DNA of 64,000 nucleotides from Candidatus Bathyarchaeia archaeon. Lineage in GTDB: Archaea; Thermoproteota; Bathyarchaeia; Bathyarchaeales; Bathycorpusculaceae. Position numbers and translations under genes: made by a program. The stretch spans positions 53,552-117,551 of the forward strand of contig JBEKKX010000001.1 of assembly GCA_050010515.1 (NCBI GenBank), in the 5' to 3' direction. The notes under the pieces are model-generated. The model saw only the letters and a list, made by a program, of their open reading frames with translations. It was not told the DNA's origin and ran no database searches. Positions 1-12,967 of this stretch are shown one piece after another (position 1 is the stretch's first letter; each line of letters starts with the position of its first letter).

Positions 1-1115
1 AAAGCATGAAAACAGCAACCATTGAAATCCCAAGCTTTACGGAACCAGAGTTTCCCCAGCCAGAAAACCTAACTGAAGCCCTGCTGCAACTGCTTTCGGC
101 TCCGAACATTGCCAGCAAAGAAAGCGTCATACGCACTTATGACCATGAAGTAAAAGGAAATACTACGCTTAAACCCTTACAAGGAGAGTACGCTGGACCA
201 AACGATGCAGCTGTACTGAAACCGCTTGATGATTCATGGAAAGGCTTGGCAATTTCGTGCGGTATGAACCCGAATTACGGAAAGATTGATGCTTACTGGA
301 TGGCTGCTTCAGCTATTGACGAGGCAGTGAGAAACAACATTGCCGTCGGCGGAAGAAGGATTGCGCTGCTGGATAATTTTACGTGGGGAAACCCTGAGAA
401 ACCAGAGCGCTTGGGCTCGCTAGTAAGAGCCTGCGAAGCCTGCTATGACTTTGCCAAGGCGTTTAGGACGCCGTTTATCTCTGGAAAAGACAGCCTCTAC
501 AACGAATCCCCGCTGGGTCCAGTTACGCCAACGCTTCTGATTACCGCCATAGGTATAATTCCTAACATTCAATTTACCACATCTATGGATTTGAAAGCGC
601 CCGGCAACCTGCTCTACATCATTGGTGACACATTCAATGAGCTGGGCGGTTCAGAATACTACAAACTCAAAGGCTACTTAGGTGCAAGCGTGCCCAAAGT
701 GAAAGGAGCCAGAGCCAAGCGCACGTTCAGAGCTGTAACTAAAGCCATCGATTTGGGCTTAATCAAATCGTGCCATGACCTTTCTGAAGGCGGGTTGGCA
801 GTGGCGGCGGCGGAGATGGCGTTTGCGGGTGGCTACGGCTTAGAGCTGGATTTAGGTAATGTACTCGGCAAAGCGTTAGAGCGAAATGACTTTGTGCTGT
901 TTTCAGAGTCAAACAGCCGCTTCCTCATTGAAGTCTCAGAAACTGATAGGCAGGAATTTGAGGCTTTAATGAAGGGAAAAAACTGCGCTAAAATTGGCAA
1001 AGTGACCGAAGACGAGAAACTGCTTATTCATGGGTTAAACCAGAAAATAGTAGTTGACGCTTCACTTGCCGAGCTGCGGTGTAGCTGGAAAAGAACGTTA
1101 AGCGGTGAACCCTAA
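1..1115 (+). CDS. purL: Phosphoribosylformylglycinamidine synthase subunit PurL, C-terminal part (5' end lies outside the window)
   Basis: Motifs YDHEV, LLDNFTWGNPE, FISGKDSLYN and CHDLSEGGL; frame open to the window edge; overlaps purQ. Confidence 0.95.
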   Translation, partial: SMKTATIEIPSFTEPEFPQPENLTEALLQLLSAPNIASKESVIRTYDHEVKGNTTLKPLQGEYAGPNDAAVLKPLDDSWKGLAISCGMNPNYGKIDAYWMAASAIDEAVRNNIAVGGRRIALLDNFTWGNPEKPERLGSLVRACEACYDFAKAFRTPFISGKDSLYNESPLGPVTPTLLITAIGIIPNIQFTTSMDLKAPGNLLYIIGDTFNELGGSEYYKLKGYLGASVPKVKGARAKRTFRAVTKAIDLGLIKSCHDLSEGGLAVAAAEMAFAGGYGLELDLGNVLGKALERNDFVLFSESNSRFLIEVSETDRQEFEALMKGKNCAKIGKVTEDEKLLIHGLNQKIVVDASLAELRCSWKRTLSGEP

Positions 1116-1938
1116 AATGAAGCTGGAAGAAATCAAAGTCTGTGTTATGCGCGTTGGCGGAACCAACTGCGATGCAGAAACCCAGCGGGCTTTTTTGGAG
1201 TTAGGTGTCCAAGCGGAGACTTTGCATGTTAACGAGTTAATAAAACGCAAAAACCTTCTTGATTACCAGGTGCTGGTTTTTCCAGGCGGCTTCTCCTTCG
1301 GCGATTATGTGCGTTCAGGCGTAATTTTTGCACGATGGCTCAGTGCTAAATTAGGCAAAGAAATTGAAGCTTTTATTGATGAAGGCAGACCGATTCTGGG
1401 AATATGCAACGGTTTCCAAATATTGGTTGAGTATGGTTTGCTTCCAGGCTTCGACGGAATGAGTACTTATCCTGAAGCTACATTGACCACGAATGAACCG
1501 CAAGGCTTCAAATGCCAATGGATTTACATGAAGCATGAAAATAGGGGAAAATGCGCTTTCACAAACAAAATTCCAGCTGGCAAGGTAGTGAGGATGCCGA
1601 TTGCCCATGGAGAAGGCAGGTTACTGTTCCCAAAGGAGAAAGAACAGGAAATGCTTGCAAAGCTAAACGATAATGACATGGTTGTTTTCCGATACTGCGA
1701 CAAAAACGGCAACAGTGCCGACGGCAAATACCCAGCTAATCCCAACGGTTCCACATATGACATTGCAGGCATATGCAGCAGGGAAGGAAACATTTTCGGT
1801 TTAATGCCTCATCCAGAGAGGGCAATGTACTGGTGGCAACAACCCGACTGGACACGGCAACAACAAATGCTGCAGTATGGCGACGGGAAACTAATCTTCC
1901 AAAGCATAATCGACAATTTAACCAAGAAGTGCTGGTAA
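1105..1938 (+). CDS. purQ: FGAM synthase glutaminase subunit PurQ
   Basis: GTNCD, PGGFSFGD, LGICNGFQ (catalytic Cys), AHGEG, MPHPER. Confidence 0.96.
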   Translation: MNPKMKLEEIKVCVMRVGGTNCDAETQRAFLELGVQAETLHVNELIKRKNLLDYQVLVFPGGFSFGDYVRSGVIFARWLSAKLGKEIEAFIDEGRPILGICNGFQILVEYGLLPGFDGMSTYPEATLTTNEPQGFKCQWIYMKHENRGKCAFTNKIPAGKVVRMPIAHGEGRLLFPKEKEQEMLAKLNDNDMVVFRYCDKNGNSADGKYPANPNGSTYDIAGICSREGNIFGLMPHPERAMYWWQQPDWTRQQQMLQYGDGKLIFQSIIDNLTKKCW

Positions 1939-1947
1939 ATCAGAGGA

Positions 1948-1977
1948 ATTGGCAAAAAAAAAGGTATATGTGCCAAT
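1948..1977. promoter_or_regulatory. 7-bp inverted repeat (ATTGGCA-N16-TGCCAAT) around a TATA-like element upstream of the AbrB gene; candidate autoregulatory operator
   Basis: Inverted repeat read directly from the sequence; function inferred. Confidence 0.35.
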
Positions 1978-2005
1978 AACATCATTATTTGCCAGTGATG
2001 ATTAT

Positions 2006-2251
2006 ATGTCTGTAGAAGTGGACAAATATGGACGCATAGTTCTACCTAAACAGATTCGCAAAAAATACGGCATGGATGAAGGCATTCGGCTTATCATCAC
2101 TGAGTATATGGGGCGTATTTGTCTTGTCCCTGTAAGGAAGTACGAAAAGCCTACTGAGATGTTATATGGCGCCGTGAAGTTGGAGATGCCTATAGAGGAG
2201 CCAAAGCACCTGGCAAGAGAACACATTCGCAAAAAGTTGGTTTTCGGCTAA
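2006..2251 (+). CDS. AbrB/MazE/SpoVT-family DNA-binding protein (likely ATG at 2006; the ORF track starts at 1949)
   Basis: VEVDKYGRIVLPKQIRKKYGMDEG is the typical swapped-hairpin N-terminus. Confidence 0.85.
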   Translation: MSVEVDKYGRIVLPKQIRKKYGMDEGIRLIITEYMGRICLVPVRKYEKPTEMLYGAVKLEMPIEEPKHLAREHIRKKLVFG

Positions 2252-2312: not shown

Positions 2313-3224
2313 TTAAAGCGATTCTAAATCTTTTGAGTAGGGCAAGCCCGCGCGTGCACCCATCTGCATTACGCTTCTGGAAGCCACAAAATTCCCCAAC
2401 CGACCGCACTCATAGAGGCTTTTGCTGTTGATTAAGCCGTAGAGGAAGCCAGCGCAGAAAGCGTCCCCAGCACCTGTCGTATCGACCACTTTTACTTTGA
2501 AAGGTTCTATCCTAAGCCTTTCTCGACCGTCAGTAACGTAACAGCCTTTGCTGCCAAGTTTAACTGCAACGATTTTAACGCCCATTTCAATCATAAAATC
2601 CGCACCTTTGCAGAAATCAGCTTCTCCGGTTAAAAGTTCAAGTTCAACAGCGTTAGGCATCAAAACATAAGAGCTTCTAATTATTGGTTCTATGGCTACA
2701 AAACCCTTCCTTGCATACACTGAGCCTGGGTCAAAGCTAATTTTAACATCGCCAGGCAAGGTGGCTAAGAGCTTTTTTTGTGCACGAAGAGATTTTTCAC
2801 CAACAAAAGAGGAGTAATGCAAAAATTTTGTTTGAGAAAGATAATTTCTATCTATTTCGCGAGGCTCGATTGTGTCGTTGACGCCTGAGTTAATGTATAG
2901 GGCTCTTGCACCTTTCTTGTCCACGAAACCAAGCACCGAACCACTTTTTCCCTGTTTTGCCTGAATGATGCCAACGGTGTCGACGCCTTCATTGCTAAAA
3001 CAGTCAATTTGCAGTTTGCCTTCCCGGTCATTGGCTACTTTCCCTATGAAGCCAACTTTGCACCCGAGCCTCGCCAACCCAACCACGGTATTCGCGGCTG
3101 ACCCCCCGCAAGCCTCAGTGTAATCTTCAATGAAGCTTTCTTCTTCAGCCCCCGAAAGCTTATCAACTTTGAAGAGCATGTCAACGTTAAGTGCACCGAA
3201 ACCGACAACGTCAAATTTGGTCAT
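2313..3224 (-). CDS. PfkB/ribokinase-family carbohydrate or nucleoside kinase (EhaT-like position)
   Basis: GGSAAN, VKLGSKG, DTTGAGDAFCAG PfkB signature; ATGA overlap with the upstream Ftr-like gene. Confidence 0.9.
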   Translation of the reverse strand: MTKFDVVGFGALNVDMLFKVDKLSGAEEESFIEDYTEACGGSAANTVVGLARLGCKVGFIGKVANDREGKLQIDCFSNEGVDTVGIIQAKQGKSGSVLGFVDKKGARALYINSGVNDTIEPREIDRNYLSQTKFLHYSSFVGEKSLRAQKKLLATLPGDVKISFDPGSVYARKGFVAIEPIIRSSYVLMPNAVELELLTGEADFCKGADFMIEMGVKIVAVKLGSKGCYVTDGRERLRIEPFKVKVVDTTGAGDAFCAGFLYGLINSKSLYECGRLGNFVASRSVMQMGARAGLPYSKDLESL

Positions 3225-4129
3225 GGAAACAGCTCTCGCAAAAATATTTTATGTTCGCCTAGTTTGCCGCCATAGTTACCAGCGGAAACCTTCACGACAC
3301 CATCAATGCCTAACACTGCTCTGACTCCAGCTTTGGTGGCTTCTTTAACAGCATCTAAAGAAACGCCATCAAAAACTATCTCAGCTATATAACCTACGCC
3401 TTCTGGAACACGAGATTCTTTACCTAACCGCTCCCTAAGAGAGGGACAATACAGGTGGTTTGTTGTTGGACCAATCTTAGGAAAATGAGTTTCCGGCTTG
3501 GAGCCTGCAGAGCAGACATCAAAGGGCGTAACTACACCGTGAGCATCATGGATTGCAGCTAAGGCTTTTTCTCCAGCTTGCCTCAACGCTTCTTTTGTTT
3601 TGCACATTACCCAAAAGTTGCCGCCCATGATGCCACGACCATAGCCTAAGTACCGTTCAATGACGAAGTCAGGAACCATCAATGGGACAACGATTACTTC
3701 TCTGCCATGACGCTTCTCTACCCATTCATAGCCGTCGCCGCAGTGTCCAACGCTCTCCATCATGTCCATTTTTCCTTCAGCGCTTGGCAGAGCGTCAAAG
3801 ATAGCGGTAAAAGGCTTTACCAAAATGTCTTGGCGGATGCGGTAGGAAAGCTCAATTTCAAACTTTTTCAGTGATTCAGCAAATGTTTTTTTTGGGTTTA
3901 TTTCTCCCCAGAACTGCAGTATTGCACCTTTGCGTTTATCGGGAGTTTCTTTTTGGCTGAGGTATTTTTCGACGCCACCCTCTACTCTGCCAATCACAAC
4001 GGAGGGCATTGCTGTCGAATCCTCAGCAGCCTTGCGTAAGGTTTCTTCATCGTCGGCTGTAACAATTACTCGGCAAAAAATTCCAGTAAAGGCTTCGGCG
4101 TACGTGTCTTCTATTTCCGCTTTTGCCAT
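3221..4129 (-). CDS. Formylmethanofuran:H4MPT formyltransferase-family protein, divergent paralog (Ftr-II/EhaS-like)
   Basis: IEDTYAEAF, ETPD, GDGYE, GGNFW, TNHLYCP, SAGNYGGKLG; central motifs differ from canonical Ftr. Confidence 0.88.
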   Translation of the reverse strand: MAKAEIEDTYAEAFTGIFCRVIVTADDEETLRKAAEDSTAMPSVVIGRVEGGVEKYLSQKETPDKRKGAILQFWGEINPKKTFAESLKKFEIELSYRIRQDILVKPFTAIFDALPSAEGKMDMMESVGHCGDGYEWVEKRHGREVIVVPLMVPDFVIERYLGYGRGIMGGNFWVMCKTKEALRQAGEKALAAIHDAHGVVTPFDVCSAGSKPETHFPKIGPTTNHLYCPSLRERLGKESRVPEGVGYIAEIVFDGVSLDAVKEATKAGVRAVLGIDGVVKVSAGNYGGKLGEHKIFLRELFP

Positions 4130-4130
4130 T

Positions 4131-5213
4131 TTATCCTAGCCTCCCTATGGATACTCCTCGCACTTTCTTTCTAAACGTGTTGCTTTCTTTTACCAGTGTT
4201 TCCATATTTTGGGCTGTTACTATTTGAGCTTTAGGCAAGGCACCAGGGTAAAAGTCTGAGAGCTGCCTCAGCAAAGCCTTGTCCACTCCACTTTTCTTTA
4301 GCGCTTCATAATTCCAAGACTGAAGCGCGCACGTTGTTTTCTCTTTTCCAAACCTGCAGAACAAATCAGCAATCGCAGCAGTTACAAGATTGCTTTCAGA
4401 TAAAACTGCTAATTCAGCATTTTTGACTGCGTAACCGTTACCGTTGAAAGATACTGTTAAGCCACCGTTTGCCCGCACGAGTTTGAAAGCTTCCACGTCA
4501 GTTATGCTGTCGCCCACGTACATCACATCCCCTAATTCTGCACCTAAACGCTTCACGGCATCACGGATTGCTTGAGCTTTTTGTTCTCCACCAATCGTTA
4601 CAACATCAGTAAGCATCTTGCCAACGCTCATTTTGGGTATTTCGCTCCAGAAAACCTCATCCAAACGCTGAATTATCGCCTGGTCATTGCGCGAAAAATC
4701 TTCCCTTGCTCTTGCCGCTGGGGGGATATCGATTAGATGCATCTGTGTAATTTCCTTTGCTATTTCTTTTAGCCGCTCTTTTTCTTTTGGCGAGAGGGCA
4801 TATTTGTCGAGGCTTACTTTGGTGCAGTAGGTATTTTCGTAGGGAAAACTGAGTGCTTTGCACAAAGCCTTGATGTAGTGCTCGTAGCTGGTGCTGACGA
4901 TGAAGGCGCTAGCTATGGCTTGTATATGGTACAGAGTCTCTTTGCTGTGAGCAATTAAAACAACGTTTTTCTCTGAAAAGTCTTCCATCAGCTTATCCGT
5001 AACATCATAAGCCTTAAAGAAAGGCAAAACAAGCTTCAACGTGCTACCCGCAGAGTAACTGGGCTTTCGCAGAACATCCGCCAGCACATCATCGTACTTG
5101 CTTATGTTGGCAAAAAGTTTGTCTCCGTTTGGGATAAAATTTGCCGCTAACTCGAAGGCGTTGTCGTTCTTTGAGATTGGTCCTTCGCAGTCGGATATGA
5201 AGATGCGCTTCAC
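4131..5213 (-). CDS. HAD-superfamily phosphohydrolase, archaeal EhaR-like family (GTG start at 5213 overlaps the purD TGA)
   Basis: HAD motif I FISDCEGP, motif II VSTS, motif III GGEQK, motif IV YVGDSITD; GTGA overlap at 5210-5213. Confidence 0.78.
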   Translation of the reverse strand: MKRIFISDCEGPISKNDNAFELAANFIPNGDKLFANISKYDDVLADVLRKPSYSAGSTLKLVLPFFKAYDVTDKLMEDFSEKNVVLIAHSKETLYHIQAIASAFIVSTSYEHYIKALCKALSFPYENTYCTKVSLDKYALSPKEKERLKEIAKEITQMHLIDIPPAARAREDFSRNDQAIIQRLDEVFWSEIPKMSVGKMLTDVVTIGGEQKAQAIRDAVKRLGAELGDVMYVGDSITDVEAFKLVRANGGLTVSFNGNGYAVKNAELAVLSESNLVTAAIADLFCRFGKEKTTCALQSWNYEALKKSGVDKALLRQLSDFYPGALPKAQIVTAQNMETLVKESNTFRKKVRGVSIGRLG

Positions 5214-6625
5214 GCCTTGCGCCTCAAATTCTCCATGTGAAGTACGCTTTTTGCAATATGCTGTTTTGAGGCGATGTCCGTTCGGTTCCACAATGCCCCA
5301 CCAGTAATTGCTTTGGCTCCTTCAAGGCTGATTTGACGTGCTTCCGCGATGCTTTTGGCTATTCCTAAAACTCCGACCGCACGGGATTTCAAAGCGTAGT
5401 TTTTGCCGTTTCTTGTTTCCATTGAACCTGGATAAACGCGGATTCTAATGCCATACTTTTTGGTTAAGGCGTAGGCTTTTGAGAGGTCAACTGGCGTGTT
5501 AGCTAAGGATTTATCAATTTGGTTGGGGAACACTTCTGCGTAGCCACCGTAGTCTGGCGGAACCTTATAGGTTAAAACGGTTGCAGCCTTTTCCAACTCG
5601 ACACTCGTCAGGTTTCCTTCTATCATTTTGAAGCAGACGTCAACGAAATCGTCTTTGATTATTGGGAGGAGGTTGATTATTTCTGGGTCGCCAGGGCGAC
5701 TGTTGTTCTCAAGAACCTTAATTCCTTGTCCAGTGTGCATGAACGCTAGATATAAGGGCACGCCTCTGAGCGTCGAATCGTCTTTAATTTTAGCTTTCCA
5801 ACCCTTGAAAATTTTATTGGCTAAAGCAAGTTCCTGTTGGCGTTCAGCCGCAGTCAAGAAGGGCAATGTGTCGCCAATGTCTTTGTATGAGCCCATTCCG
5901 CCAGTGTTTGGACCTTTATCGTCGTCGAAGGCACGTTTGTAATCGCGTGTATCTGGCAGGGGAATAAAATGTTTGCCATCACAGAAAACCATGAAACTGG
6001 ATTCTTCCCCATCAATCTTTTCTTCTATGATAACCGAGCCGTATTGGAAGTTGGACATGAAATGCTCAAAAAGTTGCTCTCGGGTTGCGAAGTGGTCGCC
6101 CCAGACGCCGACGCCTTTTCCTAAAGCTGGTTTATCAGGCTTTACCACCGCTTGATTATCCAGTTCATCTAGCCAGCGGTAAACGGCGCTTTTAACGTCC
6201 GCTTCGCCCTTGTAGTCGGCTGGGTTAAAAATTTTAAAGCGGGGATTCGCTTCTGGCGCAATCTCTTGAAAAAGTTGGCGCTGCTCTATTTTGCTGGCTT
6301 CAATGGCGTATTGTTGCTTTGGACAAATGACAGGTATACCTGTGCGTTTCTCAACGAGGTCGCGGACGCCTTCAATTATGGGTTTTTCTGAACCAACCAG
6401 AACGAAATCGATTTTGTCCTTGTTTGATTCAGCGAACTTGCAGATTTCCTCAACGTCAAGGTTTGGAATGACAATGTGTTTTGTAGCTTTTTCTGCGTTG
6501 AAAGGGTTGCGCTGTTTATCAGCAATGTAGAGTTCGACTTGATAGTTTTTGCTTTGTAGAAGGGCGTCGACCATGGCGACTTCTCTTGCGCCGTAGGAAA
6601 CAACTAGGACACCGATTTTTTCCAT
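5210..6625 (-). CDS. purD: Phosphoribosylamine-glycine ligase
   Basis: GARE, VVKPD..ALGKGV, IEEKIDGEE, RDYKRAFDDDKGPNTGGMGS, NSRPGDPE. Confidence 0.93.
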   Translation of the reverse strand: MEKIGVLVVSYGAREVAMVDALLQSKNYQVELYIADKQRNPFNAEKATKHIVIPNLDVEEICKFAESNKDKIDFVLVGSEKPIIEGVRDLVEKRTGIPVICPKQQYAIEASKIEQRQLFQEIAPEANPRFKIFNPADYKGEADVKSAVYRWLDELDNQAVVKPDKPALGKGVGVWGDHFATREQLFEHFMSNFQYGSVIIEEKIDGEESSFMVFCDGKHFIPLPDTRDYKRAFDDDKGPNTGGMGSYKDIGDTLPFLTAAERQQELALANKIFKGWKAKIKDDSTLRGVPLYLAFMHTGQGIKVLENNSRPGDPEIINLLPIIKDDFVDVCFKMIEGNLTSVELEKAATVLTYKVPPDYGGYAEVFPNQIDKSLANTPVDLSKAYALTKKYGIRIRVYPGSMETRNGKNYALKSRAVGVLGIAKSIAEARQISLEGAKAITGGALWNRTDIASKQHIAKSVLHMENLRRKA

Positions 6626-6687: not shown

Positions 6688-8169
6688 TTATGGCTGAACT
6701 TCATCTAACTCGTAAATTCTCGTTTTCTCCTCGTAACCATTGAGGAATCTCTTTTTCATGGCATCAGCCATTTTTTGAGCACAGGGGGTGGGATACTTTC
6801 CTGTAACGCAGGCTAAACATAGTTGGTCTTCTGTTTGACCTGTAGCACGTACTAATGCCTCAGTGGATTGGTAGCATACGTCGTCTGCACCTATGATTTT
6901 AGCTATTTCCTGAGCGCTGTGTCTTGAGCCGACAAGTTGCCCGTAAGTTGACATATCAATCCCATAAAAGCAAGGACCAATAATTCGTGGAAAAGTAACG
7001 AAGACGTAAACTTTTTTGGCTCCTGATTTTCGTAATTTATCTATAATTACTTTGGTTGTGTCGCCTCTGACTATGCTGTCTTCGGTTATTATAACTCGTT
7101 TTCCATTAACTTTTGAACCTAAAATGTTGATTTTCTTATCGATTGTTGAAAAGCGCTCAGCGTTTAGGAGTATGAAGGCTCTCTCGGTAACATAACGGTG
7201 CCGTCTTGATGCCCGTTCCCATCGTAAGCCTGATGCTTCATGGACTCCCATGGCTGGGTCATCTCCTGTTTCAGGCACGGACAGAATTACTTCACTATCC
7301 TTTACTACTTCAGGGTATTCTTTAACAATATTTCTCCCGAATTCTTCACGTATTTCGTAAACGTATTTGTCGTCGAACCTTGAATCGGGCCTGGCAAAAT
7401 AAGCATATTCAAAAGCGCAAAAAGCTTGATGAGGGTTTGGAATGATTTGGGTGCGTTTGAAGCCGTCCTGTGAAACCGTAACCAATTCTCCTGGTTTCAG
7501 TTCGAAATCTCTTACAAAGCTGTTCATGTCTAAGCTTACGGTTTCAGAGGAAAAAGCGTAGGTTGCCCCAGCAGGGTCATGTCCAGCGCATAGCGGTTTT
7601 ATTCCAAGCGGGTCTTTGAAGGCGAAAAAGTCGCCGTCTCCGGTTATGCCTGTTACGGAGAATGCCCCATCTAAGCTTTCCATGACGGAGCGAACGGCAG
7701 ATACTAAGTCTTTGCCCTGTTTAAGTCCGAGGAGCAGTTTATGACATACTATGTCAGAGTCACAGCAATACTGAAAGTCTTGGAAGTTTTCGGTCATCTC
7801 TTTTTTCAGCGGCGACGTGTTAACTATGTTGCCGTTAAATGAGAGTGCAAGTTTTATCCCGTTTTCGCAAGCGGTAACTGGTTGAGTACCTTGAATAAGT
7901 GAGGCATCATCACATTTACCCGACGTGGTATATCGAACGTTGCCGATGCCTATTGACCCTGGAAGGCGCCCGAACCATTCATGTATAACCTCAGTTTTTA
8001 ATTTCGGAACCAAATCCAAGTTTTTATACACAAAAAATTGCTTGTCGCTGTATGTGAGGAAGCCGTGTGATTGGTGACCTCGATGGTTTTGGGCTCGGAG
8101 ACCCCAGTAAACATATGGAAAAACGGGTTGATTTTCATAATTTATTACGCCAAAGATACCGCAGCCTAT
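6688..8169 (-). CDS. purF: Amidophosphoribosyltransferase; the true N-terminus extends upstream of the ORF-track start (catalytic Cys at 8163-8161)
   Basis: In-frame upstream translation gives CGIFG...QNHRGHQSHG; RYTTSG, FNGN, CAFEYAYFARPDS, EDSIVRGDT, CFYGID. Confidence 0.93.
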   Translation of the reverse strand: MGCGIFGVINYENQPVFPYVYWGLRAQNHRGHQSHGFLTYSDKQFFVYKNLDLVPKLKTEVIHEWFGRLPGSIGIGNVRYTTSGKCDDASLIQGTQPVTACENGIKLALSFNGNIVNTSPLKKEMTENFQDFQYCCDSDIVCHKLLLGLKQGKDLVSAVRSVMESLDGAFSVTGITGDGDFFAFKDPLGIKPLCAGHDPAGATYAFSSETVSLDMNSFVRDFELKPGELVTVSQDGFKRTQIIPNPHQAFCAFEYAYFARPDSRFDDKYVYEIREEFGRNIVKEYPEVVKDSEVILSVPETGDDPAMGVHEASGLRWERASRRHRYVTERAFILLNAERFSTIDKKINILGSKVNGKRVIITEDSIVRGDTTKVIIDKLRKSGAKKVYVFVTFPRIIGPCFYGIDMSTYGQLVGSRHSAQEIAKIIGADDVCYQSTEALVRATGQTEDQLCLACVTGKYPTPCAQKMADAMKKRFLNGYEEKTRIYELDEVQP

Positions 8170-8332
8170 TTTCGGTTCCCTTCTCGCAGTAAATGGGGAT
8201 GTAGTGAAAGAAGGGGTTTATCAGCTTTTAGTACATATTTACTTAAAAAGTATGGAGTTTTTAACATATTAAAGTTTAAAGAAACAAGTCATGAGACGGA
8301 GATAAAAGCTTAGTAAAATAAAGGAAGAAAGT

Positions 8333-9766
8333 TTAGGGTTGCCATTTCTCAATGAGATACTTGGGTATCTCGCTACTGTCGCGTGGTCCAACTTGTACCT
8401 TCCAGCCGCTTAACTCTTCGATTTCGCCGCTGATTCTTGATGCTTTGCCGGGGATGATGATTGTTCTGTGTTTAACTTTGCTTTCTACGCCTGAAGCTTT
8501 TATGGCGTCGGCTACGCGTTCAGCGGTTAGTTTTCGTCCTGCGACTCCGCTGTCGATTGCTGAGCCCTCAGTTTCAACAACAATGAGATACGCGTTAAGT
8601 TTGCTGCTTTCTAGGTCTGAAGCAACTGTATAGTATGTTAATGCAAAGTTGGATGTGAAGAACACTGGAGAGTTTTCGTCCGGAGTCCCGAACACTTTGA
8701 GCCCTGGAGCAACCGCAACTGGTTTGCGTGGGTCAGTGTAAATGTTTTGTCTTAGCACAGTTATCGGTAGCAGTGACCATCCGTCAGCGCCGTGCATTAC
8801 AAGCACGTCAGCGTACCGTACAACAAGCATTGCGGCTAAGTATGCTTCACGCCATTTTATGAGGTCTTCAGCTGTTTCGCCCCTGCCCAGCCAAGCAACC
8901 ATTGGAACACCCATCAATGGGAAGCCAGCGAGTTCTTCTCCGCCTTTAGTTGCCGCTCTGCGAAGCATAGTAAAGTTGCTGATAGTATCTGGTAATCCTT
9001 CATTCGCGAATGTGCCTGGGTCTAAAACCAAGTCAGTTACACCGTAAGCCATCAATGTTTTTGCGAGTGAAACCAGCGTGTTCAGGTCATTTGGTGCAGA
9101 AACCACCAGTGGGCAACTGTACATTAAGGCGAGTTCCGCCATGTCTTTCCAGTTTTCTTTGTTAGCCGCATAAAGTAGTGGTCGTGCTTTTGGCGCCGCC
9201 ATTAATCCTGCTTCAAGAACATTGGAATTCAATGCGCACAGAATCATGGGCAGTTTAGTTGTTTCAACGACCTTTTTCACGGTTGCTTTGAATTTTTCCG
9301 CGTCTCCTGATGTTGAGCGAACGGCAACCATGTCCAGTTTTAGTGTGTAGCCGATATATTCGAAGCTATAGTTTTCTATGCGTTTAATTCGACTTGCAAC
9401 TTCCTCGCCGGACATTTGGTCAGTTACATCTATCGCGATGGCTGTCGGGTTATTATAGGTGAATTCATGGCGGTACATGACTAGTTTGCCGCCTAGTTTC
9501 CTAGCTGTGTCTCCGACGCCGACGGTGACTTCTTTGACTGCTGGCTTTAGCAGTTCTTTTAGTTGGTTGTAGGCTTTCTCGTTCTCTTTCTTTAGCAGCG
9601 GTGGGCACTGGTCAATGTTTACTTCGCGGTTGACAATTTTTGTGGCAAAAGCCATGCAGTTGTCTTGACCGCATTCTTTACAATTAATTTTTGGAAGAAG
9701 CTTGTAAACGTCTATGGGGCTTAATTCTTTTAATCCAGCTTTCTTTTTTTCGCTCATGCTATTCAA
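8333..9766 (-). CDS. cdhE: Acetyl-CoA decarbonylase/synthase gamma subunit (corrinoid Fe-S protein, large subunit)
   Basis: LPKINCKECG..NCMAFA Fe-S motif, TSNFALTY, GPRDS; position in the cdh cluster. Confidence 0.96.
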   Translation of the reverse strand: MNSMSEKKKAGLKELSPIDVYKLLPKINCKECGQDNCMAFATKIVNREVNIDQCPPLLKKENEKAYNQLKELLKPAVKEVTVGVGDTARKLGGKLVMYRHEFTYNNPTAIAIDVTDQMSGEEVASRIKRIENYSFEYIGYTLKLDMVAVRSTSGDAEKFKATVKKVVETTKLPMILCALNSNVLEAGLMAAPKARPLLYAANKENWKDMAELALMYSCPLVVSAPNDLNTLVSLAKTLMAYGVTDLVLDPGTFANEGLPDTISNFTMLRRAATKGGEELAGFPLMGVPMVAWLGRGETAEDLIKWREAYLAAMLVVRYADVLVMHGADGWSLLPITVLRQNIYTDPRKPVAVAPGLKVFGTPDENSPVFFTSNFALTYYTVASDLESSKLNAYLIVVETEGSAIDSGVAGRKLTAERVADAIKASGVESKVKHRTIIIPGKASRISGEIEELSGWKVQVGPRDSSEIPKYLIEKWQP

Positions 9767-9772
9767 ACTCCT

Positions 9773-11002
9773 TTAAGCCTTTACGCTGACCCAATCAGCA
9801 AATTTGGAAGCGTCTGCTTTTTTGCCGCTGGTTAGGTAGTTTGTAACGTCTTTTAGTGTTTTTACGGCTGCAGGGTGCATCATCATGAATAAGTCAACGC
9901 CAGTAAGCAACAGTGTTAAGGCTGTTGTTACTTCCCAGAGTGGACCTCGGAGCTCGCGTGGTTCCCATTCAGCAGACATTTTTAGCCAAGCTTCTCGTGC
10001 TGCCCAGGCATTGGTTGTTCCTGAAGACATTGGGTGAGCTAATTCAACGTCACCCATTAATCCACCGAGCCTTGCACGTTCCATATTAGTGAATGCATAA
10101 TCTAGGCCGTAGCCTAACGCGGCAGTGGTTAAGTCCATGACGATGTCTTCTCTTCCCAAAAAGTCGTATAGTCGCCTGTTAAGTTCCCGTGCCAAATTCA
10201 AGTCCATAGGAGTGAAAGATAACGCGACATGCCCGTTCTTTTTAATGTACTTTGCACAGCGCTCAACATCCATATCCCTTGTTATCGAACTAATGAGGAA
10301 ACGCTCGCCTGGGAAAGCTTCACATATGGCCTCGAAAACGTCTGCGTCTTTAACTGGGTCACCGCAACCACCGATAACTAGCGGAACATCAACGGCTTGC
10401 AGAACTTTTTCAACTGTTTTTACCGCGTCTTTTGGTGTAGCATCTTTGAGTAGCGGATCAATGCTGATTAAGTGAATTGTAACCATGTCCGCGGCGAACT
10501 TGTCCACTGCAAGCTTTGCCCATGCCGCTGGGTCACCGATCACGTCTTTGACGTGCATTTTCACCGCTTTGCTTAAGGGAACTTCCATGTCGAAAACGTC
10601 AAGAGTGATTACTGGTTTGTGAGTGGTTGGTCGCTCAAAATTGTAGAATGCAGGCGATGTCTCGCCACCTATTACAAATGATCTTCCGCGCGTTCCGCCT
10701 TCGCTTCTTGTTGCCCCAAGTCTTACTTCAGTAATCTTGTTTGGATAGGTTTCAACTGGAGGTATGAAAGCTGCCTGTAACATGGCAGTGGGTTTTCCGC
10801 CTGCTAAGCTTGGAAGCTTGATTTTGGGCATTATTTGCCCAGCCATTCCCGGCTCAAAGATTATTTCGAGTTCCTTGACGTCCATTTCGAAATCTTGCAG
10901 CTCGATCTGCTGAAATTTTGCAAGCGCTTCCAGTAAATCGCTGCTGAGTTTTAATCCTTCATCCTCTTTTTTCTTAGCGTCATCTTGAGGCAATGAGGTC
11001 AC
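9773..11002 (-). CDS. cdhD: ACDS delta subunit (corrinoid Fe-S protein, small subunit)
   Basis: LGATRSEGGTRG, GYGLDYAFTNMERARL, NAWAAREAW, MMHP. Confidence 0.95.
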   Translation of the reverse strand: MTSLPQDDAKKKEDEGLKLSSDLLEALAKFQQIELQDFEMDVKELEIIFEPGMAGQIMPKIKLPSLAGGKPTAMLQAAFIPPVETYPNKITEVRLGATRSEGGTRGRSFVIGGETSPAFYNFERPTTHKPVITLDVFDMEVPLSKAVKMHVKDVIGDPAAWAKLAVDKFAADMVTIHLISIDPLLKDATPKDAVKTVEKVLQAVDVPLVIGGCGDPVKDADVFEAICEAFPGERFLISSITRDMDVERCAKYIKKNGHVALSFTPMDLNLARELNRRLYDFLGREDIVMDLTTAALGYGLDYAFTNMERARLGGLMGDVELAHPMSSGTTNAWAAREAWLKMSAEWEPRELRGPLWEVTTALTLLLTGVDLFMMMHPAAVKTLKDVTNYLTSGKKADASKFADWVSVKA

Positions 11003-12414
11003 CGCTTCTCTGATTTATCGCTCTTTATCGTTTGGATTATGACTGTTTTAGCGTAGATTTTTGCGTCTTTGAGAATGATTTTGAATCCGCCAGCCATTAT
11101 TGGCAGTGACGCTGCTGTGGCAACCGGCATCATTGTGCCTGCTGCTTCTTCTTTAACCTCTACGGCTTCTGCTTCTGCTGCTGGAGCTTCTTCGGCTGTC
11201 CATCTTGCGACTACTGGGTGGTTCTTGTCCTTTAGGAATGCTTTCAACGCATCGACGCCCGTTGCGTTTTCTTCAGTGGCAATTTTGTCAACGACGTCTT
11301 GGGGTATGAAGTCTTTTACTCGTTCTTTAACTTCTTTTGGAAGCCAGACTATGCGGTTCCAGCCGCCGTCTGCAGATAGGAACTTTTTGCTACGCATGTA
11401 TTCAATTGACATTCCGTGGAAGCCGTCTATCTGTCGTCCGCCAGCGGTGGAGTCAGCGATTGTTGAGAATGGTAAACCGTTTACTGTTACGCCTTTGAAG
11501 CTTCTGTTTACGACGCCGAAGCCGTCTACTTCTGGAATGTAGAATGCTACTGCCTCGAAGCATCCGCATGAAGTGTGTGGGTGATCGAACGCTGTGTATA
11601 GCCAGACTTGGTTCACTTCGCCCATAGTGCGTTTTTTAGCCATTTCGTTAACGCCGCTAAACTCGCCCTTTTCAGCGTTTATTAATTGGCCTCTGTCGAT
11701 TGCGAATACTGGTCCTTTAGGATCAATGTTTGCTGAGGCTTTTCCGTCAAACCAGCTGATGGCGCCGCAGTTAGAATATCTTTGCGGGGTGATGATGCAA
11801 ACATGGGTTGGAGCAAATGATTGGCATAAGGTGCAACCGTAAAATTTGTCGACGTCTTCGTCTTTGAGGCCTCTTGCTTTAGCGTCACGTGATTCGTAAT
11901 CTTGCATTGCTTCTGGGTAGAGTTCTGACAATTTAGCAGGATCTGTTATGAAGGTAACTTGTACTTTCTCGATTATGGGGAGTTCGCTTTTGAATAAGCG
12001 GCAGAGTACTTTGCCGATTGGTTCAAAACTGTTTAAGCCTTTTTGGAATGATTTTTTGCTTAAGCGTATCCAGATGTCATAGCGCTGGTTTAAGTGCATC
12101 AAGCCCTCAACGTAGTTTAAATAGCCATGAATTCGTCTTTCAATGACGCCTTCAAGGCCTTGATCGAGAGTTGCACCTGCAGCTTCAACAAGAATGCCGA
12201 GTGGGTATGCGCCGCCTTCTTTGAGGTCTTTTATGTCTGGGCCTATAATGGTGATTTTGCCGTCTTCTATTTCGTCCATTGGTTTTACTTTTGCTAGTTC
12301 AAACTTTTCTTTAACTGATGGACCGCCAAATTCTACTTGCATGTCGTTTCTTCTAATGCGTTCGCCTTCGTAGATTACGCCAACATCAACAGGTATATCT
12401 TTAAACATTGACAT
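10999..12414 (-). CDS. cdhC: ACDS beta subunit (acetyl-CoA synthase); likely ATG at 12414
   Basis: YGERIR, CTLCQSFAPTHVC, HTSCGCFE A-cluster ligands; acidic Ala/Glu linker near the C-terminus. Confidence 0.96.
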   Translation of the reverse strand: MSMFKDIPVDVGVIYEGERIRRNDMQVEFGGPSVKEKFELAKVKPMDEIEDGKITIIGPDIKDLKEGGAYPLGILVEAAGATLDQGLEGVIERRIHGYLNYVEGLMHLNQRYDIWIRLSKKSFQKGLNSFEPIGKVLCRLFKSELPIIEKVQVTFITDPAKLSELYPEAMQDYESRDAKARGLKDEDVDKFYGCTLCQSFAPTHVCIITPQRYSNCGAISWFDGKASANIDPKGPVFAIDRGQLINAEKGEFSGVNEMAKKRTMGEVNQVWLYTAFDHPHTSCGCFEAVAFYIPEVDGFGVVNRSFKGVTVNGLPFSTIADSTAGGRQIDGFHGMSIEYMRSKKFLSADGGWNRIVWLPKEVKERVKDFIPQDVVDKIATEENATGVDALKAFLKDKNHPVVARWTAEEAPAAEAEAVEVKEEAAGTMMPVATAASLPIMAGGFKIILKDAKIYAKTVIIQTIKSDKSEKR

Positions 12415-12418
12415 TTTT

Positions 12419-12961
12419 TTATTGTCCTCCTTCAAATTTTGAAGATATGACTGTGAGATTTGCAGCCCATTCCTCGAGGGTTGCGTTTGGGAAAGACCAG
12501 CTTGCATGCGGATGATACAAGTTGTCCAGAGTCATGGTCTTTTGGCAAGGAGCGAAGTGCATTAGTCCTGAAAGGATTAGTTCTTCCATGTAGAATGGGA
12601 GACCTACAAACATGACTAGGTCGTATGGGCCTTTGCCGTCAAGTCCTTTCCATTCGGGGTCAACTATACGATTGCCGATGTCCATGGCAGACATGAAGCC
12701 TGCTGGTTGGTAACCGCGTTTTAGGAATTCGCCGACCATGTGCGCTGTAGCGACCACTGGAACTTTTGATGCGTTAGCGAAGTCAATCAGGTACTCGATT
12801 AGTTGTTTGCCTTCCATGTATCGTTCAGTAGCATAGCTGCCCACGATGAGCAGTGGACGGGAGGCTTTTTTGATCATTGCTACTGCTATCTCAGGTTTCT
12901 GTATGGGGTTTGCTTTCTTTGTTGCGGCTATCTCTGCACATTGCCAAGGTTCACATGCCAT
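12419..12961 (-). CDS. cdhB: ACDS epsilon subunit
   Basis: EPWQCAE, KKASRPLLIVG, WKGLDGKGPYD, HPHASWSFPN; lies between cdhA and cdhC. Confidence 0.93.
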   Translation of the reverse strand: MACEPWQCAEIAATKKANPIQKPEIAVAMIKKASRPLLIVGSYATERYMEGKQLIEYLIDFANASKVPVVATAHMVGEFLKRGYQPAGFMSAMDIGNRIVDPEWKGLDGKGPYDLVMFVGLPFYMEELILSGLMHFAPCQKTMTLDNLYHPHASWSFPNATLEEWAANLTVISSKFEGGQ

Positions 12962-12967
12962 ATCTTA

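What the first reader, a model, noticed from the sequence alone, without database searches (positions are those of the whole stretch)
3221..4129. The Ftr homolog carries non-canonical core motifs, suggesting a changed formyl acceptor
Seen: termini match Ftr (EDTYAEAF, GGNF, SAGNYGGKLG), but the core reads TAMPSVVIGRVEGG, RIRQDILVKPFT, VGHCGDGYE and GPTTNH. Canonical Ftr, from recall, has TGFGTSVIMCPAEAG, RIGQCVMTAPT, FFGDGY and ASTN. Inference: a separate clade (Ftr-II/EhaS) whose added basic residues could bind a phosphoribosyl substrate instead of methanofuran.
Basis: partly seen in the sequence, partly recalled or inferred. Interest (0 to 1): 0.6.

Follow-up and report, generated by a model that had tools for sequence, protein, structure and literature searches.

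The report
Candidate missing archaeal purine formyltransferase
This archaeon has a normal copy of the methanogen-type formyl-transfer enzyme Ftr elsewhere; the diverged second copy examined here sits in the purine operon at the step for which the genome has no known enzyme, making it a testable candidate for an enzyme reported missing in several archaea since 2011.

Summary
ORF 3221-4129 (minus strand, 302 aa) is a full-length Ftr-fold protein with the quoted motifs. These motifs are signatures of a separate, widespread clade (Ftr2), not noise.

The gene does not cluster with canonical Ftr, and the genome carries a canonical Ftr on another contig.

Context: the order is purF-purD-HAD-like-Ftr2-PfkB kinase, with purD, HAD-like, Ftr2 and PfkB overlapping or abutting. 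purL/purQ lie divergently. The 98.5%-complete genome has no PurN and no PurT. It has two PurP copies for the second formylation, so only GAR formylation lacks an enzyme.

- Of 137 PurD-bearing Thermoproteota genomes, all 22 with Ftr2 lack PurN/PurT-like genes; 111 of the 115 without Ftr2 have one.
- Of 50 Ftr2 genomes from several phyla, 49 have PurD, 2 have PurN and none has PurT.
- The same cluster occurs in Asgard archaea.

Best reading (about 0.55): Ftr2 formylates GAR, or its riboside, from the H4MPT-bound C1 pool. No biochemistry exists. The 'added basic residues' argument is weak, and the roles of the HAD-like protein and the kinase are unresolved.

This scan noted the same module earlier in other genomes. 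One later check priced the bold reading at 40/100.

The parts
3221..4129 (-). Ftr2: diverged Ftr-family formyltransferase, 302 aa. Candidate GAR formyltransferase.
   Evidence: Pfam FTR and FTR_C. TIGR03119 scores 230.6, below its 292.6 cut-off. AF2 pLDDT 95.4; TM 0.88-0.91 to 1FTR, 1M5H and 1M5S. Falls in the Ftr2 clade. E250 invariant.
4131..5213 (-). HAD-like protein, 360 aa, of the family JGI labels 'EhaR'. Its GTG start overlaps the purD stop (GTGA).
   Evidence: Weak Pfam HAD hits. Closest solved structure is 1Y8A, AF1437. Invariant DxEGP, STSY, K212 and GDSITD motifs. JGI name. Co-occurs with Ftr2 in 23/23 of the phylum sample. Junction read.
2313..3224 (-). PfkB/ribokinase-type kinase, 303 aa. 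Its start overlaps the Ftr2 stop (ATGA).
   Evidence: Pfam PfkB 175.7 bits. Ribokinase TIGR02152 169 bits, below cut-off. NVD, GG and DTTGAGD motifs. Junction read. Found next to Ftr2 in Bathyarchaeia, Asgard, L016 and L045.
5210..6625 (-). purD (GAR synthetase). The only copy in the genome.
   Evidence: TIGR00877 242 bits.
6688..8169 (-). purF (amidophosphoribosyltransferase). The only full copy in the genome. Catalytic Cys codon at 8163-8161. No canonical start codon upstream.
   Evidence: TIGR01134 310.9 bits over model positions 1-432. Sequence read.
3..1115 (+). purL, C-terminal part; runs off the window start.
   Evidence: TIGR01736 273 bits.
1105..1938 (+). purQ
   Evidence: NF002252 320.7 bits, over cut-off.

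Best explanation
Ftr2 is proposed to be the enzyme for step 3 of de novo purine synthesis in this archaeon, the formylation of glycinamide ribonucleotide (GAR).

Proposed mechanism, all inferred:
- It keeps the Ftr fold and the catalytic Glu (E250). It would therefore still move a formyl group between an N-formyl donor and a primary amine.
- One of the two bulky coenzyme sites is remodelled (C130 for Phe, G220-P221, R99, P42, V45).
- The glycyl amine of GAR would take the place that the furfurylamine of methanofuran has in the reverse Ftr reaction: N5-formyl-H4MPT + GAR -> H4MPT + FGAR. Formyl-methanofuran as donor is not excluded.
- FGAR would then feed PurL/PurQ, encoded next door.

The translationally coupled HAD-like phosphotransferase and ribokinase-type kinase belong to the same module, but their role is open. 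One option is that they are accessory. The other is a three-step shunt costing one ATP: GAR is dephosphorylated, the riboside is formylated, and the product is re-phosphorylated. That would pull a weakly driven formyl transfer forward.

Shown here: clade, context, phyletic complementarity and conservation of the catalytic residue. Inferred: substrate, donor and partner roles.
For: 1. The gap.
- The own genome is 98.5% complete. It has no PurN match and no PurT; the best ATP-grasp hit scores 49 bits and lies inside a 1101-aa frame.
- It has one purD and one purF, both in this cluster.
- purL and purQ are adjacent.
- It has two PurP copies and no PurH AICARFT domain. Only GAR formylation is therefore unassigned.

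2. The slot.
- The order is purF-purD-HADl-Ftr2-PfkB, with GTGA and ATGA overlaps and a 1-nt gap.
- The same order recurs in 11 Bathyarchaeia loci.
- In Asgard archaea, Borrarchaeum and a Promethearchaeota MAG carry purF-purD-HADl-Ftr2-PfkB-purL-purQ, all co-directional and in pathway order. Atabeyarchaeum carries purQ-purL-purF-purD-Ftr2.
- In other Thermoproteota the place directly downstream of purD holds a PurT-like gene, in at least 24 of 46 genomes (coordinates).
- In a Bathyarchaeia genus without Ftr2, that place holds a divergent PurN-like gene.

3. Complementarity.
- In 201 Thermoproteota genomes at least 80% complete, 137 have PurD.
- The 22 with Ftr2 have no PurN or PurT-like gene.
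- Of the 115 without Ftr2, 111 have one. Two of the remaining four have the divergent PurN-like gene.
- Of 50 Ftr2 genomes from Bathyarchaeia, Asgard, Archaeoglobi, Hadarchaeota, Altiarchaeota, Hydrothermarchaeota and others: PurD 49/50, PurN 2/50, PurT 0/50.
- Genomes with only Ftr1 use PurN or PurT.

4. Literature.
- A GAR formyltransferase is missing in Archaeoglobi, Methanobacteriales and Methanopyrus (PMC3261824).
- An uncharacterised Ftr2 clade occurs in those same groups and in ANME-1 (PMC9012536).

5. Chemistry.
- E250 is invariant.
- The model is confident and has the Ftr fold.

6. Donor. MfnB tracks the Ftr1-type copy and not Ftr2; Mch is present in 45/50 Ftr2 genomes.
Against: - No biochemical or genetic test exists.
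- All Ftr2-positive genomes in the phylum sample belong to one class, so the 22-versus-111 contrast overstates independence.
- Two Ftr2 genomes also have PurN (a Methanolliviera MAG and G029). The Methanolliviera MAG shows only an Ftr2-type Ftr, so there Ftr2 may do the canonical job.
- In Archaeoglobaceae, Altiarchaeota, Hydrothermarchaeota, Methanocellales MAGs and Methanopyrus, the genes are not linked to pur genes.
- 12 of 50 Ftr2 genomes, including a closed Atabeyarchaeum chromosome, gave no HAD-like match with this query. The three-step shunt therefore cannot be universal.
- MfnB is not found in 11 genomes that do have an Ftr1-type copy, so its absence is an unreliable sign of 'no methanofuran'.
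- An earlier check in this scan (e1-2408049) reported that only 25% of archaea lacking PurN and PurT have the gene. It also reported that in Bathyarchaeia PurN/PurT are rare without the gene too (18 of 209). I could re-examine this only on four such genomes that have PurD.
- PMC3261824 states that formyl-H4MPT is not believed to serve as a formyl donor in purine synthesis.
Confidence: 0.55

Rival explanations
1. Ftr2 is an ordinary second isoenzyme of formyl-MFR:H4MPT formyltransferase used for anabolism. It sits in the purine operon because it balances the C1 pool, for example by returning formyl groups to methanofuran to yield formate for the formate-dependent PurP. GAR formylation would be done by a still unknown enzyme.
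For: - Full Ftr fold with the catalytic Glu kept.
- It passes the NCBIfam subfamily model PRK02114 (332.7 against a 297 cut-off).
- The genome has PurP, which needs formate.
- The Methanolliviera MAG has only this type of Ftr, plus PurN.
- The CODH/ACS operon lies just upstream.
Against: - It does not explain why Ftr2 and PurN/PurT exclude each other among PurD-bearing genomes.
- It does not explain why Ftr2 occupies the purD-downstream slot that PurT-like or PurN-like genes hold elsewhere.
- Twelve genomes have Ftr2 as their only Ftr-family gene, and ten of those show no MfnB.
- Residues conserved in canonical Ftr are replaced throughout the clade.
- Genomes with Ftr1 alone still carry PurN or PurT.
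Confidence: 0.15
2. The HAD-like/Ftr2/PfkB trio acts on another ribosyl compound and only travels with purine genes because it shares PRPP-derived precursors. Candidates are a step in making or recycling an H4MPT- or methanofuran-type cofactor, or salvage of a ribosyl intermediate.
For: - The trio, or pairs from it, also occur away from pur genes (L016, L045, L048, L055, L064).
- Literature reports an Ftr-like and a ribokinase-like gene at the end of the Methanothermobacter eha operon (PMC3087415).
- The kinase has ribokinase-type sugar motifs.
- The HAD-like gene is kept in a genus that lost Ftr2.
- An Aenigmarchaeota MAG places Ftr2 beside PRPP synthetase.
Against: - The HAD-like gene sits next to purD even where Ftr2 is elsewhere (G024, G028, G040, G042).
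- In Asgard loci the trio lies in pathway order between purD and purL.
- The complementarity with PurN/PurT would be a coincidence.
- The missing step would remain unexplained.
Confidence: 0.15
3. GAR formylation is done by a diverged ATP-grasp enzyme using formate, for example one of the two tandem PurP paralogues. Ftr2 would be unrelated to that step.
For: - Two PurP-family genes lie in tandem on contig C10.
- PMC3261824 notes that the cluster II PurP proteins have no demonstrated function.
Against: - By PMC3261824, Methanobacteriales have a single PurP yet lack PurN and PurT.
- The same paper reports that cluster II PurP also occurs in organisms that have PurT (Sulfolobales, Thermococcales).
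- It has no link to purD in this genome.
Confidence: 0.07

Closest known systems
Formylmethanofuran:tetrahydromethanopterin N-formyltransferase (Ftr, EC 2.3.1.101; structures 1FTR/2FHJ, 1M5H, 1M5S)
   Same: - Same two-lobe FTR/FTR_C architecture and fold (TM 0.88-0.91, rmsd 2.1-2.5 A).
- 33-39% identity.
- The conserved Glu of the EIVI motif (E250) and the C-terminal SAGNYGGKLG are kept.
   Different: - Separate clade.
- Fails the TIGR03119 equivalog cut-off, which the genome's own Ftr1 passes (230.6 and 383.4 against 292.6).
- Clade-wide replacements: G40A/S, C47G, G99R, F130C, A221P, plus G220 and P42.
- Encoded in a purine operon rather than alone or with C1 genes.
PurN and PurT, the two known GAR formyltransferases
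   Same: - Occupies their operon position, after purD and before purL.
- Has the complementary phyletic distribution expected of a functional replacement.
   Different: - No sequence or fold relationship to either.
- The donor would be an archaeal C1 carrier, not 10-formyl-tetrahydrofolate or formate plus ATP.
- Activity is unproven.
EhaR/EhaS/EhaT, the last genes of the Methanothermobacter eha operon (PMC3087415)
   Same: - An Ftr-like gene followed by a ribokinase-like gene.
- The HAD-like family here is the one JGI labels 'energy-converting hydrogenase A subunit R'.
- Methanobacteriales also lack PurN and PurT (PMC3261824).
   Different: - Here the genes are joined to purF-purD, not to hydrogenase genes.
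AF1437 of Archaeoglobus fulgidus (PDB 1Y8A), a structural-genomics 'hypothetical protein'
   Same: Closest solved relative of the HAD-like partner (E 1.6e-30). It comes from an organism that also lacks a known GAR formyltransferase (PMC3261824).
   Different: No function is known for AF1437. It covers only residues 4-287 of the partner.

Membership tests
Ftr (EC 2.3.1.101) | FTR and FTR_C domains over the full length | tested here: met
   PF01913 150 bits and PF02741 178 bits.
Ftr (EC 2.3.1.101) | Ftr fold | tested here: met
   AF2 model pLDDT 95.4. Foldseek TM 0.88-0.91 to 1FTR, 1M5H, 1M5S and 6S6Y_D.
Ftr (EC 2.3.1.101) | Catalytic glutamate (Glu245 of the M. kandleri enzyme; numbering recalled from the 2006 ternary-complex paper, not checked here) | tested here: met
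   E250 is 100% conserved in 92 Ftr2 sequences and aligns with the Glu of canonical Ftr.
Ftr (EC 2.3.1.101) | Score above the curated equivalog cut-off (TIGR03119) | tested here: not met
   230.6 against 292.6. Ftr2 of Geoglobus scores 258.5 and of Borrarchaeum 167.7, both also below. The genome's own Ftr1 scores 383.4.
Ftr (EC 2.3.1.101) | Groups with the biochemically characterised enzymes | tested here: not met
   Separate clade with 95-99% branch support. The genome's own Ftr1 groups with the canonical set. The solved enzymes carry the canonical motifs.
Ftr (EC 2.3.1.101) | Formyl-MFR:H4MPT formyl transfer activity | not testable with these tools
   Needs an enzyme assay.
GAR formyltransferase (functional class, PurN/PurT) | Homology to PurN or PurT | tested here: not met
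   No Formyl_trans_N or ATP-grasp hit for this protein.
GAR formyltransferase (functional class, PurN/PurT) | Encoded between purD and purL/purQ in purine clusters | tested here: met
   Seen in the window, in 11 Bathyarchaeia loci and in 4 Asgard loci.
GAR formyltransferase (functional class, PurN/PurT) | Present where PurN and PurT are absent but the pathway is otherwise there | tested here: met
   Ftr2 with PurD: 0 of 22 have PurN/PurT-like. PurD without Ftr2: 111 of 115 have one. Of 50 Ftr2 genomes: PurD 49, PurN 2, PurT 0. Caveat: the genomes are related and many are MAGs.
GAR formyltransferase (functional class, PurN/PurT) | Converts GAR to FGAR | not testable with these tools
   Needs an assay or genetics.
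EhaR/S/T trio | HAD-like protein of the family named EhaR | tested here: met
   JGI gives that name to many relatives of the partner family. The window protein matches those partners at 29-31% identity in alignment A5.
EhaR/S/T trio | Linked to energy-converting hydrogenase genes | tested here: not met
   The co-directional neighbours are purF, purD and the cdh (CODH/ACS) operon.
EhaR/S/T trio | Ftr2 and kinase orthologous to Methanothermobacter EhaS and EhaT | not tested
   No Methanobacteriales sequence was retrieved. This rests on PMC3087415 and PMC9012536.

The most novel reading that the evidence does not exclude
Ftr2, together with the HAD-like phosphatase and the ribokinase-type kinase, forms a third, non-homologous route for purine step 3. 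GAR is dephosphorylated, the riboside is formylated from N5-formyl-H4MPT, and the product is re-phosphorylated with ATP. This would couple purine C8 directly to the archaeal Wood-Ljungdahl C1 pool. It would also explain the long-puzzling EhaR/S/T genes of methanogen hydrogenase operons.
Probability: 0.2. Interest if true: 0.9.

Novelty: new variant of a known kind. Interest (0 to 1): 0.75.

Why it matters
The enzyme for GAR formylation has been reported missing in Archaeoglobi, Methanobacteriales and Methanopyrus since 2011 (PMC3261824). The same gap appears here in Bathyarchaeia, Asgard archaea, Hadarchaeota, Altiarchaeota and Hydrothermarchaeota.

If Ftr2 fills it:
- a central pathway gains a third, unrelated enzyme class;
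- purine carbon in these widespread sediment archaea would come straight from the methanopterin-bound C1 pool;
- thousands of genes now annotated as the methanogenesis/Wood-Ljungdahl enzyme Ftr would be misnamed, which distorts metabolic reconstructions that count ftr as a pathway marker;
- the unexplained Ftr-like and ribokinase-like genes of the eha operon would get a rationale, because Eha replenishes C1 intermediates withdrawn for biosynthesis.

In the paper library searched I found none that joins the Ftr2 clade to the missing step.

Tried and rejected
- **Complex prediction, Ftr2 plus the HAD-like protein:** no verdict (score 0.31, mark 0.32). Not evidence either way.
- **The search for related loci with the 9-sequence alignment A2:** It was rerun with A3.
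- **MfnB absence as proof that Ftr2 does not need methanofuran:** rejected as proof. Eleven genomes with an Ftr1-type copy also show no MfnB. It is kept only as a weak trend.
- **The third Ftr-family clade (P0140 and others) as bacterial FhcD:** rejected. It scores 90-166 against the 292.6 cut-off.
- **Methanopyrus context of the HAD-like homologue:** no pur, ftr or kinase neighbours, so uninformative.
- **PurP paralogue as the missing enzyme:** its distribution does not fit.
- **Open text of the Ftr ternary-complex paper, sought for residue-level binding sites:** not held. I therefore could not map the clade-specific residues onto the methanofuran and H4MPT sites.
- **Methanothermobacter EhaS/EhaT sequences:** not retrieved.
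Full report
**Observation.** The finding's coordinates hold an ORF on the minus strand (3221-4129, 302 aa). Pfam matches FTR and FTR_C end to end. NCBIfam's subfamily model PRK02114 is passed (332.7 against 297). The equivalog model TIGR03119 is not (230.6 against 292.6). The closest solved proteins are the Ftr enzymes of A. fulgidus, M. barkeri and M. kandleri (E 1e-46 to 1e-55). An AlphaFold model built on 37 clade members is confident (pLDDT 95.4) and superposes on those structures at TM 0.88-0.91.

**Is it a separate clade, and is there a canonical copy?**
- The genome is 98.5% complete; source names on near-identical proteins place it in Bathyarchaeia.
- It has two Ftr-family genes. The other, on contig C4, carries the canonical motifs and passes TIGR03119 (383.4).
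- A tree of 59 representatives from a 1.8-billion-protein library and a tree of 143 sequences with named loci agree. The window protein and the C4 protein fall in different major clades, split by branches with 95-99% support.
- The clade of the window protein, here called Ftr2, spans Bathyarchaeia, other Thermoproteota MAGs, Methanolliviera, six Asgard lineages, Altiarchaeota, Hydrothermarchaeota, Hadarchaeota, Methanocellales MAGs and Archaeoglobaceae.
Canonical Ftr has G/S, F, x-A, A/G and I at those positions.
- The Glu aligned with the catalytic glutamate of Ftr (E250) is invariant.
- The 'added basic residues' idea is weak. R99 is the only clade-wide gain, and basic residues typical of Ftr1 at 128, 207 and 217 are lost.

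**Surroundings.**
- On the same strand lie purF (6688 to about 8169), purD (5210-6625), a 360-aa HAD-like gene (4131-5213), Ftr2 and a PfkB/ribokinase-type kinase (2313-3224). purL and purQ lie on the other strand, and the archaeal CODH/ACS operon lies upstream.
- purD/HAD-like overlap as GTGA. HAD-like and Ftr2 are 1 nt apart. Ftr2/kinase overlap as ATGA.
- The genome has no PurN and no PurT. Its only purD and its only full-length purF are the ones here.
- It has two PurP copies and no PurH formyltransferase domain.
- So the one step of the pathway without a gene is GAR to FGAR, the step between PurD and PurL.

**Comparative context.**
- I took 80 Ftr2 loci from one genome per species and scanned them with the window's proteins.
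- Eleven Bathyarchaeia loci repeat the cluster.
- Two Borrarchaeum genomes and a Promethearchaeota MAG have purF-purD-HADl-Ftr2-PfkB-purL-purQ, all co-directional and in pathway order.
- Atabeyarchaeum has purQ-purL-purF-purD-Ftr2.
- Loci of Archaeoglobaceae, Altiarchaeota, Hydrothermarchaeota and Methanocellales show no pur genes within 10 kb.

**Phyletic pattern.**
- In 50 of these genomes: PurD 49/50, PurN over cut-off 2/50, PurT 0/50 at E 1e-30.
- In an even sample of 201 Thermoproteota genomes at least 80% complete, Ftr2 and Ftr1 were separated by an HMM that splits them at 328 versus 286 bits.
- 137 of these genomes have PurD. All 22 with Ftr2 lack PurN and PurT-like genes. 111 of the 115 without Ftr2 have one.
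- Two of the four exceptions, both in one Bathyarchaeia genus, carry a divergent 278-aa PurN-like gene 2 nt downstream of purD. This is the place the trio occupies here.
- The PurT-like genes lie directly downstream of purD in at least 24 of 46 genomes (coordinates).
- Genomes with Ftr1 only always have PurN or PurT.
- Caveats: the Ftr2-positive genomes of that sample belong to one class, the genomes are related, and many are MAGs.

**Literature.**
- PMC3261824 (2011) could find no GAR formyltransferase in two Archaeoglobi, four Methanobacteriales and M. kandleri.
- PMC9012536 (2022) describes an uncharacterised Ftr2 clade in Archaeoglobales, M. kandleri, M. marburgensis and ANME. Elsewhere in the paper it notes the lack of PurN and PurT in ANME-1, Archaeoglobales and Methanobacteriales. 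It does not link the two.
- PMC3087415 reports that the last eha-operon genes of Methanothermobacter were annotated as Ftr and ribokinase.
- Full-text searches found no paper joining GAR formylation to Ftr or formyl-methanofuran.

**The partners.**
- The HAD-like protein keeps all four HAD motifs, with Glu at the Asp+2 position (D8-x-E10-G-P, STSY, K212, GDSITD).
- Its closest solved relative is the uncharacterised AF1437.
- JGI names the family 'energy-converting hydrogenase A subunit R'.
- It occurs in 23/23 Ftr2 genomes of the phylum sample and in only 2 of 178 others. It occurs in 38/50 of the cross-phylum set.
- It often sits next to purD even where Ftr2 is elsewhere.
- The kinase has ribokinase-type NxD, GG and DTxGAGD motifs.
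- A dephosphorylate-formylate-rephosphorylate shunt would explain the trio and would cost one ATP, as PurT does.
- However, 12/50 Ftr2 genomes, one of them closed, gave no HAD-like match, so the shunt cannot be general.

**Donor.**
- Mch is found in 45/50 Ftr2 genomes and MfnB in 29/50.
- MfnB goes with the presence of a second, Ftr1-type copy (27/38) rather than with Ftr2-only genomes (2/12), ten of which have Mch.
- This weakly favours formyl-H4MPT as donor, with GAR in the methanofuran position.
- MfnB is also missing from 11 genomes with an Ftr1-type copy, so the inference is soft.

**Earlier notes of this scan.** The same trio was flagged in several other genomes, with the same reading. 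One later check (e1-2408049) priced the bold reading at 40/100 and gave counts that weaken the complementarity. My counts, conditioned on PurD and completeness and using relaxed PurN/PurT thresholds, are much cleaner. They are small within Bathyarchaeia, where only four PurD-bearing genomes lack Ftr2.

**Verdict.** My best explanation, at about 0.55, is that Ftr2 is the missing archaeal GAR formyltransferase. No experiment supports it yet.

Noticed in passing
window 8161-8220 (minus strand): purF has no ATG, GTG or TTG in the 18 codons between the in-frame TAA (8220-8218) and the catalytic Cys codon (8163-8161). Relatives have ATG or GTG 7-8 codons before the Cys. An ATA at 8169-8167 follows an AAGGG stretch. 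This could be a non-canonical start or a damaged start.
   Followed up: partly
window 1949-2251 (+): A 100-aa MazE/AbrB-like ORF (PF04014, 25.3 bits) lies between purQ and the 3' end of the kinase gene. No toxin partner is visible.
   Followed up: partly
window 8333-15316 (minus strand): An archaeal CODH/ACS (cdh) operon ends about 160 nt upstream of purF on the same strand. The C1-fixing and purine clusters are therefore neighbours.
   Followed up: partly
L101:1285-2121 (-) and L100: In one Bathyarchaeia genus without Ftr2, a divergent 278-aa PurN-like protein (TIGR00639, 77 bits) sits 2 nt downstream of purD. The HAD-like gene is kept 12 kb away.
   Followed up: yes
proteins P0140, P0184, P0190, P0199: A third, deep Ftr-family clade fails both NCBIfam Ftr cut-offs (90-224 bits) and is not FhcD by that model. 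Its function is unknown.
   Followed up: partly
genome of L021 (handle G004, Methanolliviera MAG): Only an Ftr2-type Ftr was found, together with a PurN and two Mch copies and no MfnB. This is an exception to the complementarity, and here Ftr2 might do the canonical job.
   Followed up: no
L015:6454-9651: An Aenigmarchaeota (DPANN) MAG has PRPP synthetase, two small ORFs, Ftr2 and a small 224-aa classical HAD hydrolase in a row.
   Followed up: no
handle G071, contig C1:924913-927666: The PurD match lies in a 971-aa open frame that abuts the PurT match. This may be a PurD-PurT fusion.
   Followed up: no
G000:C10:12204-13843 (L098, L099): The window's genome carries two tandem PurP-family genes. 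The role of the second copy is unknown, as PMC3261824 notes for other archaea.
   Followed up: no
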